This document shows, piece after piece, positions 15,001 to 18,000 of a stretch of DNA of 64,000 nucleotides (its first letter is position 1; every line of letters begins with the position of its first letter). Source of the DNA: Escherichia coli (GTDB taxonomy: Bacteria; Pseudomonadota; Gammaproteobacteria; Enterobacterales; Enterobacteriaceae). The stretch is from assembly GCF_003790525.1 (NCBI RefSeq), contig NZ_CP033635.1. One strand, given 5' to 3'. The position numbers are program-made.

Positions 15001-18000
15001 AATGGTTAAGAATAAAACATGAGCTGGTGATTATCAGGACAGGTTGCTTGTATATGAAGATAACAAAGGCGGCATTTATTTTTGCGCTGTCAGTGTGGAG
15101 TGTTGCTGTGATATGTCTTTTATTATTTGTACTGATTGTTCTGGGATAGCCATAGTGAAATAAAAAGCTGTCTGAATTAAATTATTTTGCACACATATTT
15201 TAATTCTGCACTGAATTCAGAATGGGTAATCAGTGACCGTCCAGGCGGTCACCGAACTCGATAATAAAGCGGCTCATTGCCATTCGCCAGTCCTTCAACG
15301 GCATCGTCCATTTCTGGGACGCAGACTGGATTGCCAGCCACACCACTTTTTTCACCGAGTCGTCTGTCGGGAACACTTTACGCTTTTTGATCGCATGGCG
15401 GATCACGCTGTTTAGCGACTCGATGGCATTCGTCGTATAGATCACTTTGCGGATGTCCGTTGGATAAGCGAAGAACGTGGCAAGATTCGGCCAGTTAGCC
15501 TGCCAGCTTCGGCTTATCTGAGGATAGCGACTGTCCCAGGCCGCAGCGAACGCTTCCAGTGCCTGCTGACCTGCCTCTTCCGTGGGAGCCTGATAAATCG
15601 CTTTCAGGTCGCGAGTGACGGCTTTGTAGTCCTTCCATGACACGAAGCGCAGGCTGTTGCGCACCATATGCACGATGCATAACTGGATGCGGGCCTTCGG
15701 ATATACTGTGTTGATGGCATCCGGGAAGCCTTTCAGGCCATCCACACAGGCGATGAGGATATCGTTCAGACCGCGGTTTTTCAGTTCAGTCAGCACATTG
15801 AGCCAGAACTTCGCCCCTTCATTTTCGGCCAGCCACATACCCAGCAGTTCCTTCTGACCTTCGATATTGATGCCCAGTGCCAGGAACACCGATTTGTTGA
15901 TGACGCGACTGTCCTGCCGAACTTTCAGGACGATACAGTCAAGATAAACAATGGGGTAAACAGCATCCAGTGGTCTGTTTTGCCATTCTACAACCTGCTC
16001 CATCACGGCATCGGTGACCTTTGATATCAGTGCCGGTGAAACATCTGCGTCATACAGTTCTTTGAACGCAGTAGCTATCTCACGGGTGGTCATCCCTTTG
16101 GCATACAACGAGAGGATCTGGTTATCCATCCCGGTAATACGGGTCTGATTTTTCTTTACCAGTTGTGGTTCGAAGGTACCGTCACGATCGCGCGGAGTAC
16201 GCAGTTCCAGTGGACCGTCGCCTGTGATAACGGTCTTTGTGGAATAACCGTTGCGGGAGTTAGCTCCTGGTCTGGACTGATTTTTCTCATACCCAAGATG
16301 GTGTGTCATCTCTGCATTGAGAGCGGCTTCAACGCTGAGCTTTTTCAGCAGCCGATCAAACTGACTGAGGTCTTCAGGGGTTTTGAGGTTTTTGGCCAGT
16401 TCGTTAGCCAGAGCCTGTAACTGTTTTTCGTCCATAAATTAACCTTCATTTGATGCTGGATTGAACATATCAAAATCAGGCAATTACACAAATCTATGTA
16501 CAGGCTCAAACAGGTTAAGTCAGCAGAATATCACGGTTAGCACGATGGCTGTCATTCGGCCGATGAACAGTTGCTTAAGACAGGATTATCATTCCCTTCC
16601 ACCAGATTGGCTTTTTTCCCTTTTGTGTACAGTTTATATGAGTATCTTTTATTGATGGCTTCGTAATTGGCTCCGGAGGCCATTTTCATAAGCTGCATAG
16701 GTATCATCTCATCCATCTGATTAATCACTGCATATGAGTTCCCAGCAGTGGTGTTGATATAGACCACCTCCATTGTCTTATTTCCATTACAGACATAAGC
16801 TGTTTTTGAGATTTCTTTTGTGGCAGCGGAGGATACCATACTGCTGCTAACAAGAATGAGTGCAAGGACGGGAGAAGAGTATTTTTTCATAATAACTCCT
16901 TCTGTAGGTTAAAAAAACAGGTGTTTGATCAGAATTATATTAATAATTCATTCATCAGAAAAAAAGGTTTTTGTTATAGCAATAATAATGAGCACAATTG
17001 CTTGTGAAACTGGTGCCATTTTACGGTTGCTTAGGAGTGCTGAAACTGTGCCTGTTAGGGCACAGCTGGTGTGGTGGTCTCAGTACGGAACAATTTGAAA
17101 ACCAGAACATCACTTAGGCTTGTGTCCACATTACATGGGGTAGGATCAGTATTCCTCTATCAGGGGTAACTCGACCAGGCTGGCTGAGCTCTCGTTTTAC
17201 TGCGAGTATCTATGCCCATTCAGCCAGTGTCAGCGCGAGAGTGTTAAATTCCGAGCCATTATCCATGCGCAGCATGACCGGATAACCATGATTTAGCCCC
17301 TGCCGAGCTAATCGGGTACTGCATAGCACTCTCAATATGGAATAAGCGATAATTATCGCTTATTCCCAGCAAAATATCATGCCTCATCGGTGCTTTACGA
17401 GGCGATCGCTGCGATAAAGCGTGTCGTTATCTGCTGCGGACGAGTGATTGCCCCCCCAACCACCACGGTATGAGCGCCTAATGTCAGGCAACGTGCGGCG
17501 CACTCCGGGGTGTCGACATTCCCTTCCGCCACGACCGGAACGCTGACCGCTTTCAGGACCTCACGTAAGAATCCACAGTCATTTTCCGCCAGCACATGCC
17601 TGGCAGTTTCTGCGGTATAGCCGTAGAGCGTAGTGCCCACACAGTCAAAACCCAGACGTTCAGCTGTCACTGCCTCTTCTACTGTTGCTATATCTGCCAT
17701 CAGAAGTATGGACGGGTAGCGAGCGCGGATCTGCGTGACCAGTTCTTCCAGCGTCTGACCACCAGGGCGCGGGCGCGCAGTAGCATCCAGGGCAATAATT
17801 TCCGGCTCAACGGTCATCAGCTCATCCACTTCCCGGAGAGTGGCCGTGATAAACACCTCACTGCCAGGGTAATCGCGTTTGATAATCCCTATCATCGGAA
17901 GGGAGACAATCTCTTTGATAGCACTAATATCCGCCACGCTGTTGGCACGGATACCTGCAGCACCACCTTGTGCTGCCGCCAGCGCCATACGTGACATAAT

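What the first reader, a model, noticed from the sequence alone, without database searches (positions are those of the whole stretch)
17340..17366. Perfect palindrome with 13-bp arms downstream of the NanE-like gene
GGAATAAGCGATA-A-TATCGCTTATTCC is a perfect inverted repeat but is not followed by a clear T-run, so it could be a protein-binding site or an IS-end relic rather than a terminator.
Basis: seen in the sequence. Interest (0 to 1): 0.2.

Follow-up and report, generated by a model that had tools for sequence, protein, structure and literature searches.

The report
Leftover queE promoter turned perfect palindrome
The palindrome is real but ordinary: it is the leftover promoter and leader of a destroyed neighbouring gene (queE), carried into an E. 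coli genomic island with a sugar-uptake module, and a few pair-restoring mutations made an imperfect inverted repeat perfect.

Summary
The palindrome exists, but it is 28 bp (17339-17366) with 14-nt arms and no central base. It is the only one of its kind in the window.

- **Not a repeat.** It occurs once per genome in 459 of 5,426 E. coli, always beside an rpiR / PTS-EIICB / nanE-like module. The same motif is found in only 21 of 100,044 species genomes.
- **Origin.** In Citrobacter, Enterobacter and Lelliottia the module lies on the chromosome just upstream of queE. The element fills the short nanE-queE spacer, about 14 nt before the queE ATG. Its centre matches an extended -10 promoter (TGCGATAAT), and the invariant columns across genera fit that reading.
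- **In the window.** Only 6 codons of queE survive (17324-17306), followed by an internal fragment of an IS3-family transposase. The palindrome is therefore not an IS end.
- **Derived state.** The ancestral form is imperfect, with 3 mismatched pairs. On the branch leading to the two main E. coli island types, three changes repaired all three pairs and removed the TG of the extended -10. The window lineage then added a compensatory G>A / C>T pair.
- **Mechanism.** I attribute this to quasipalindrome template-switch correction after promoter constraint was lost. Selection for an RNA hairpin at the operon's 3' end is the main rival.

There is no U-tract, no Rfam match and no second copy. Interest is low.

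The parts
17339..17366 (.). Perfect 28-bp palindrome (14-nt arms, no spacer). It is a derived form of the conserved element in the nanE-queE spacer.
   Evidence: homologues
17352..17357 (-). GATAAT, the -10 hexamer of the ancestral queE promoter, at the centre of the palindrome. The ancestral upstream TG (extended -10) has become AG here.
   Evidence: Promoter scan. Invariant columns T-G..A-T-A..T across 11 variants. Inference only; no mapped transcription start.
17375..17380 (-). ATGATA, a -35-like hexamer 17 nt upstream of the -10.
   Evidence: CATGA conserved
17329..17333 (-). GAGAG, the Shine-Dalgarno sequence of queE (GAG invariant across genera).
17306..17324 (-). queE remnant: ATG CAG TAC CCG ATT AGC T (MQYPIS), the first 6 codons only.
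   Evidence: the first 16 nt are identical to Citrobacter queE
17100..17305 (-). Decayed internal fragment of an IS3-family transposase (contains ...GYPVMLRMDNGSEFNTLALTLAEWA*). The lower boundary is approximate; the BLAST-matched core is 17174-17287.
   Evidence: (H49-H55)
17395..18084 (-). nanE-like gene (N-acetylmannosamine-6-phosphate 2-epimerase family, PF04131).
18084..19639 (-). PTS EIICB gene of the module. In this window it is split into two ORFs by a 1-nt deletion near 19367.
19805..20629 (+). Divergent MurR/RpiR-family regulator of the module.
16552..16890 (-). MliC-family lysozyme-inhibitor gene, the next gene on the same strand. Read-through from the module or the relic promoter would reach it.

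Best explanation
The palindrome is the remnant of the spacer between the nanE-like gene and queE, as found in Citrobacter- and Enterobacter-type chromosomes. That spacer holds the queE core promoter (an extended -10, TGCGATAAT, at the centre of the element), the queE leader and its ribosome-binding site. The ancestral sequence there is only a quasi-palindrome, GGGGATCTGCGATAATTATCGTTTATCCCC, with 3 mismatched pairs.

The rpiR / PTS / nanE module was captured into E. coli genomic islands together with this spacer and the start of queE. queE was then destroyed: a stop at codon 7 in the ST131-type island, and truncation after codon 6 by an IS3-associated rearrangement in the window type.

Once promoter function no longer constrained the sequence, template-switch ('quasipalindrome') mutations copied one arm from the other. 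CT>AA in the left arm and T>C in the right arm made a perfect 32-bp palindrome and removed the TG of the extended -10. Later, in the window lineage, G>A and C>T changed a paired position together and one outer C was lost, leaving the perfect 28-mer.

Today the element probably has no sequence-specific function. At most, its RNA forms a stable hairpin (about -17 kcal/mol) at the 3' end of the PTS-nanE transcript.

Shown: the origin, position, polarity and non-randomness of the changes. Inferred: the promoter assignment, the template-switch mechanism and the lack of present function.
For: - **Single locus.** One copy per genome in 459 of 5,426 E. coli, always beside the module. Only 21 of 100,044 species genomes carry the motif, all Citrobacter, Enterobacter or Lelliottia, each with the order nanE stop, element, about 14 nt, queE ATG.
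- **Synteny.** The chromosomal order is eno / rpiR / PTS / nanE / queE / queD / cysJI.
- **queE start in the window.** Window 17324-17306 matches the start of queE.
- **Promoter reading.** The columns invariant across 11 variants, including native E. coli, Raoultella and Scandinavium queE upstream regions that lack the hairpin, are TGn[G/A]ATA[A/C]T and the GAG of the ribosome-binding site. The scan also calls ATGATA-17-GATAAT.
- **Ancestral conservation.** The 30-bp ancestral form shows 1 difference between Citrobacter and Enterobacter where 6.7 are expected (P about 0.01).
- **Polarity.** The module tree is (A,(B,C)), supported by 88 sites against 19 and 2, with Citrobacter as outgroup. All outgroups and island type A carry the imperfect form.
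- **Non-random changes.** On the B/C branch 0.79 substitutions are expected per 30 bp. Three were observed and all restore pairs (joint P about 3e-6). On the C branch a compensatory pair was observed (joint P about 7e-4).
- **Mutation type.** CT>AA is a tandem double transversion, as expected of a templated event.
- **Known mechanism.** Template-switch mutations that make quasipalindromes more perfect are an established hotspot mechanism in E. coli (PMC7202029).
Against: - The mosaic outcome (left arm corrected at two positions, right arm at one) cannot come from one simple template-switch tract. It needs two events, or one event plus a point mutation.
- No half-corrected intermediates were found in E. 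coli (one search shows no 95-99% class) or in metagenomes, so the order of events is unknown.
- Island type A also has a truncated queE yet keeps the imperfect form.
- The G-C to G.U to A-U route, with the G.U state seen independently in E. hormaechei subsp. hoffmannii, is equally what selection on an RNA stem would give.
- No transcription start site for queE was found in the papers read, so the promoter assignment rests on consensus and conservation alone.
Confidence: 0.55

Rival explanations
1. The hairpin is selected. After queE was lost, the spacer was optimised as an RNA stem-loop at the 3' end of the PTS-nanE mRNA. It would act as a barrier to 3' exonucleases, or as a weak or factor-assisted terminator that insulates the downstream mliC-like gene. 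Compensatory evolution keeps the pairing.
For: - The RNA stem strengthens from -15.6 kcal/mol (ancestral) to -23.3 (ST131 type) and -17.4 (window).
- In context the fold has z = -2.8 in the window and -6.7 in ST131.
- All five substitutions preserve or create pairs.
- A G.U intermediate state exists in nature.
- No other terminator-like site lies on the minus strand between nanE and mliC.
- Where nanE is not followed by queE (Raoultella, Scandinavium), it has a canonical terminator instead.
Against: - There is no U-tract: AUAUUGAG follows the stem.
- The window type lost an outer pair and 6 kcal/mol relative to ST131.
- There is no covariation support across genera.
- There is no Rfam match.
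- The PTS gene of this window is itself frameshifted, so selection on the operon's transcript here is doubtful.
Confidence: 0.3
2. The element is an operator. A dimeric DNA-binding protein, either an unknown regulator of queE or the island's RpiR/MurR regulator, recognises the symmetric sequence. The perfect symmetry would reflect selection for tighter binding.
For: - The 30-bp ancestral element is more conserved than a bare -10 requires (1 difference against 6.7 expected).
- It overlaps the promoter, which is the classic position for a repressor.
- PhoP-P binds somewhere within 300 bp upstream of E. coli queE (PMC4974570).
Against: - There is no second copy or half-site in the window.
- The rpiR-PTS control region carries a different inverted repeat.
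- I saw no PhoP-box-like direct repeat in the element (by eye).
- The inner right arm differs among genera that keep the synteny.
- The gene it would regulate is gone in the window.
- The derived changes alter 3 of 15 positions per half-site, which an operator under selection should resist.
Confidence: 0.08
3. The element is an IS terminal inverted repeat, or the scar of a transposition or site-specific recombination event.
For: It lies 33 nt from an IS3-family transposase fragment in an IS-rich island.
Against: - The IS3 piece is internal to the transposase ORF.
- The palindrome is separated from it by the queE start codons.
- The same element sits at the same position in IS-free chromosomes of three genera.
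- It is single-copy in every genome examined.
Confidence: 0.02

Closest known systems
queE (ygcF) upstream region and core promoter of Enterobacteriaceae
   Same: It is orthologous in position and sequence. ATCTGC[G/A]ATAAT, the GAGA ribosome-binding site and ATGCAGTACCCGATTAAC are shared with native E. coli, Citrobacter, Enterobacter, Raoultella and Scandinavium queE.
   Different: In the window the gene is reduced to 6 codons, the TG of the extended -10 is lost, and the flanks have become a perfect palindrome. Native E. coli and Raoultella versions have essentially no hairpin (-3.9 and -2.2 kcal/mol).
Quasipalindrome-associated template-switch mutation hotspots (E. coli thyA and lacZ reporters; Ripley 1982; Dutra & Lovett 2006; Klaric et al. 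2020, PMC7202029)
   Same: An imperfect inverted repeat becomes perfect through changes that all copy the opposite arm, including a tandem two-base change.
   Different: Here the pattern is inferred from natural, fixed variants rather than observed in a reporter. It needs at least two events, and selection cannot be excluded.
Rho-independent (intrinsic) terminator
   Same: A stable stem-loop lies shortly after a stop codon at the end of an operon.
   Different: There is no U-tract and the stem is AU-rich in its middle. The scan does not call it. Raoultella and Scandinavium show what a canonical terminator after this nanE looks like.
IS3-family terminal inverted repeats, and REP/BIME dispersed palindromes
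   Same: Palindromic or inverted-repeat DNA in an IS-rich island.
   Different: It is single-copy, not at an IS terminus, and is an ancestral chromosomal intergenic sequence.

Membership tests
Intrinsic (Rho-independent) terminator | Stable stem-loop just downstream of the stop codon | tested here: met
   12-bp stem with an AAUU loop, -17.4 kcal/mol, 28 nt after the TAA
Intrinsic (Rho-independent) terminator | Run of U/T immediately 3' of the stem | tested here: not met
   The stem is followed by ATATTGAGAG on the minus strand and CAGCAAAATA on the plus strand. It is not called by the scan.
Sigma-70 extended -10 promoter (of queE) | -10 hexamer with A at -11 and T at -7, conserved among orthologues | tested here: met
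   GATAAT at 17357-17352. The A, T, A and final T columns are invariant in 11 variants.
Sigma-70 extended -10 promoter (of queE) | TG at -15/-14 | tested here: not met
   The ancestral form and all 21 species have CTGC, but the window and the ST131 type have AAGC. The feature is present in the ancestor and lost here.
Sigma-70 extended -10 promoter (of queE) | Experimentally mapped transcription start downstream of the -10 | not testable with these tools
   No transcription start for queE was found in PMC4974570 or PMC11142719.
IS terminal inverted repeat / IS-end relic | Sequence lies at the terminus of an IS and recurs with copies of that IS | tested here: not met
   The adjacent IS3 fragment is internal to the transposase ORF. 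The element is single-copy and present in IS-free chromosomes.
Dispersed palindromic repeats (REP/BIME-like) | Many copies at unrelated intergenic loci | tested here: not met
   1 copy in the window, 1 locus per genome in 459 E. coli, and 21 single loci in 100,044 species.
Transcription-factor operator | Related site(s) at the regulator's own or its target promoters; specific protein binding | tested here: inconclusive
   There is no related site in the rpiR-PTS control region, and none elsewhere in the window with up to 3 mismatches. The strong 30-bp conservation in Citrobacter and Enterobacter leaves an unknown queE regulator possible. Binding is not testable here.
Conserved structured RNA | Covariation that supports the helix across lineages; match to a known family | tested here: not met
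   Rfam gives 0 hits at E<=10. 67% of cells are paired and covariation is not above the controls.
Quasipalindrome template-switch product | Ancestral imperfect inverted repeat; every derived change increases complementarity by matching the opposite arm | tested here: met
   Polarity from the tree. 3 of 3 changes on the B/C branch and the paired change on the C branch restore pairs.
Quasipalindrome template-switch product | Changes explained by one contiguous templated tract | tested here: not met
   Left-arm positions 7-8 and right-arm position 9 changed, so at least two events are needed (alignment).

The most novel reading that the evidence does not exclude
The element is not inert. One possibility is that the 30-bp sequence, invariant across Citrobacter, Enterobacter and Lelliottia, is the operator of an unrecognised regulator that controls queE at its promoter. 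queE is a queuosine enzyme that also blocks cell division when over-expressed. The other possibility is that the perfected hairpin in the E. coli islands is a selected 3'-end element without a U-tract. Either way, the window would preserve a natural case of a promoter turned into a perfect palindrome by templated self-correction.
Probability: 0.15. Interest if true: 0.35.

Novelty: new member of a known kind. Interest (0 to 1): 0.17.

Why it matters
Its main value is in annotation and in avoiding over-interpretation. A striking perfect palindrome in an ExPEC/APEC island turns out to be a fossil of the neighbouring queE promoter, which marks the donor context of the PTS-nanE module (a Citrobacter-like eno-queE locus). 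A secondary point is that it offers a clean natural example of an imperfect inverted repeat becoming perfect once functional constraint is lifted. That pattern is what laboratory quasipalindrome template-switch mutagenesis predicts. It also warns that compensatory-looking changes in palindromes need not indicate a selected structure.

Tried and rejected
- **Rfam** scan of 16800-17600 at E<=10: no hit.
- **Terminator scan:** the element is not called.
- **Other copies:** none in the window with up to 3 mismatches. In E. coli genomes there is one locus per genome; the '2 places' reported are the two strands of a palindrome. Across 100,044 species there are 21 single loci. A dispersed repeat is rejected.
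- **IS-end idea:** rejected, because the IS3 fragment is internal to a transposase ORF and is separated from the palindrome by the queE start.
- **Module operator idea:** rejected, because the rpiR-PTS intergenic region has a different inverted repeat.
- **PhoP box:** I saw no convincing (T/G)GTTTA-N5-(T/G)GTTTA repeat in the element by eye. The paper only localises PhoP-P binding to within 300 bp upstream of queE.
- **Cross-genus covariation** for a hairpin: not above controls.
- **Half-corrected intermediates** (GGGGATCTG...CGCTTATCCCC and GGGGATAAG...CGTTTATCCCC): 0 hits in metagenome contigs.
- **Literature** on this PTS-nanE-rpiR island module: nothing specific found.

Full report
**Observation.** The sequence at 17339-17366 is GGAATAAGCGATAATTATCGCTTATTCC. 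It is a perfect 28-bp palindrome with 14-nt arms and nothing between them. It is the longest perfect inverted repeat in the window, and about 0.0012 such palindromes would be expected by chance in 64 kb. It lies 28 nt beyond the TAA stop (17397-17395, minus strand) of a 229-aa NanE-family gene. No T-run follows it on either strand, and the terminator scan does not call it. Rfam gives no match.

**Copy number and context.** The window is E. coli accessory DNA.
- A 601-bp query around the palindrome is fully matched in 146 of 5,426 complete E. coli genomes.
- The palindrome itself, queried as a 32-mer, is found in 459 genomes at one locus each. Each locus is counted twice because a palindrome matches both strands.
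- It always lies next to the same three-gene module: a divergent MurR/RpiR regulator, a PTS EIICB gene and nanE-like (window 17395-20629).
- The module sits in at least three different island contexts.
- Homology between these contexts continues about 60 nt past the palindrome's far edge and stops at window 17306.
- A degenerate pattern that allows any bases at the variable arm positions hits only 21 of 100,044 species genomes. All are Citrobacter, Enterobacter or Lelliottia, with one locus each.

This is a single-locus sequence.

**What it is.** In Citrobacter, Enterobacter, Lelliottia, Huaxiibacter and an unnamed Enterobacteriaceae isolate, the module is chromosomal. It lies between eno and queE-queD-cysJI. 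The element fills the spacer of about 55-72 bp between the nanE stop and the queE start, ending about 14 nt before the ATG. On the minus strand the window reads: palindrome, ATATTGAGAGTGCT, then ATG CAG TAC CCG ATT AGC. This is the queE ribosome-binding site and its first six codons (17324-17306). After that comes a decayed fragment resembling the DDE region of an IS3-family transposase (...MLRMDNGSEFN...). That fragment is an internal part of the transposase ORF, not an IS terminus. The palindrome is therefore not an IS end.

**Promoter reading.** The centre of the element on the queE strand is TGCGATAAT in the ancestral form, which is an extended -10. A -35-like ATGATA lies 17 nt upstream. 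I aligned 11 distinct variants. They include native queE upstream regions of E. coli K-12-like strains, Raoultella and Scandinavium, where nanE is not the upstream neighbour and there is essentially no hairpin. The invariant columns are the T and G of TGn, the A, T, A and final T of the hexamer, and the GAG of the ribosome-binding site. That is the conservation pattern of a promoter, not of a helix. Pair counting across genera gives 67% paired cells and covariation no better than the controls. No mapped queE transcription start was found in the papers I read. They show only that phosphorylated PhoP binds within 300 bp upstream of queE. The promoter assignment is an inference.

**The perfect symmetry is derived.**
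- All 21 species and the tRNA-Phe island type of E. coli (type A) carry GGGGATCTGCGATA[A/C]TTATCGTTTATCCCC, which has three mismatched pairs.
- That form is strongly conserved. There is 1 difference between Citrobacter and Enterobacter where 6.7 are expected (P about 0.01).
- The module tree is (A,(B,C)) with Citrobacter as outgroup, supported by 88 sites against 19 and 2.
- On the branch to B (ST131 type) and C (window type), 0.79 substitutions are expected in 30 bp. Three occurred: CT>AA in the left arm and T>C in the right arm. Each repairs one of the three mismatched pairs, giving a perfect 32-bp palindrome (joint probability about 3e-6).
- The same changes destroy the TG of the extended -10. 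On that lineage queE is dead, with TAG at codon 7 in B and truncation after codon 6 in C.
- On the C branch, G>A and C>T changed the two sides of one pair together and an outer C was lost, giving the window's 28-mer (joint probability about 7e-4).
- The predicted RNA stem goes from -15.6 kcal/mol (ancestral) to -23.3 (B) and -17.4 (C). Native E. coli and Raoultella versions give -3.9 and -2.2.

**Mechanism.** I favour quasipalindrome template-switch mutation. This is a well-documented E. coli hotspot mechanism in which the nascent strand copies the opposite arm and makes an imperfect inverted repeat more perfect (PMC7202029). It would have acted once the promoter was no longer needed. The tandem CT>AA change fits a templated event.

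Several points weigh against a simple version of this:
- The mosaic pattern needs at least two events.
- No half-corrected intermediates were found in E. coli or in metagenomes.
- Type A has a truncated queE but remains uncorrected.

The main rival is selection for an RNA hairpin at the 3' end of the PTS-nanE transcript, acting as a stabiliser or a weak terminator.
- In its favour, no other terminator-like site lies before the downstream mliC-like gene. Lineages in which nanE is not followed by queE have a canonical terminator there. A G.U intermediate at the window's variable pair exists in E. hormaechei subsp. hoffmannii.
- Against it, there is no U-tract, the window type lost stability relative to B, and the PTS gene of this window is itself frameshifted.

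An operator is a minor rival. The module's own control region has an unrelated inverted repeat, but the 30-bp conservation in the ancestral context leaves room for an unknown queE regulator.

**Verdict.** The element is a fossil of the queE promoter and leader, carried with a captured PTS-nanE module and turned into a perfect palindrome by pair-restoring mutations. It is an ordinary feature with a neat micro-evolutionary footnote, and its interest is low.

Noticed in passing
window 19313-19639 and 18084-19331 (near 19367): The PTS EIICB gene of the module is split into two ORFs by a 1-nt deletion (CGCCAG > CGCAG) relative to the otherwise 99.9% identical gene in strain EC974. It is either a pseudogene or a sequencing error.
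   Followed up: partly
window 19657-19674 / 19694-19711: An 18-nt inverted repeat (TTTTGATGAAAATTTTTA / TAAAAATCACCATCAAAA, 83% complementary) lies in the divergent rpiR-PTS intergenic region. It is a plausible operator of the RpiR/MurR regulator and is unrelated to the palindrome.
   Followed up: partly
window 15230-16435: An intact 401-aa Mutator/IS256-family transposase (Pfam E=9e-120) lies between the sigma-like HTH gene and the mliC-like gene. The two compared type-C genomes whose stretch covers this gap (EC6563, 20Ec-P-124) lack it there, and strain EC974 instead has ISEc12 inserted in mliC. The insertions are independent.
   Followed up: partly
L010/L011 4690-4740; L041 2690-2725: In Raoultella and Scandinavium the nanE-like gene is followed by a convergent epimerase gene and a canonical GC-rich hairpin with T-runs (AAAAAACCCGCCTCGGCGGGTTTT). 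queE lies further on and its upstream region has no palindrome.
   Followed up: yes
L004/L005 (Citrobacter portucalensis): Here the module plus an intact queE copy is flanked upstream by DUF4225 and unknown genes instead of eno. This suggests that module and queE moved together as an island, a possible donor stage for the E. coli islands (89% identity to the window module).
   Followed up: no
window 17339-17366 versus ancestral form: The ancestral element contains a Dam site (GGATCTG) between the -35 and -10 of the putative queE promoter. It is conserved in E. coli, Citrobacter and Enterobacter, absent in Raoultella and Scandinavium, and lost in the perfected palindromes (GGATAAG).
   Followed up: no
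window 41518-41542: A second perfect inverted repeat is present: 11-nt arms with a 3-nt spacer (TAAAATGTTAT / ATAACATTTTA). I did not examine it.
   Followed up: no
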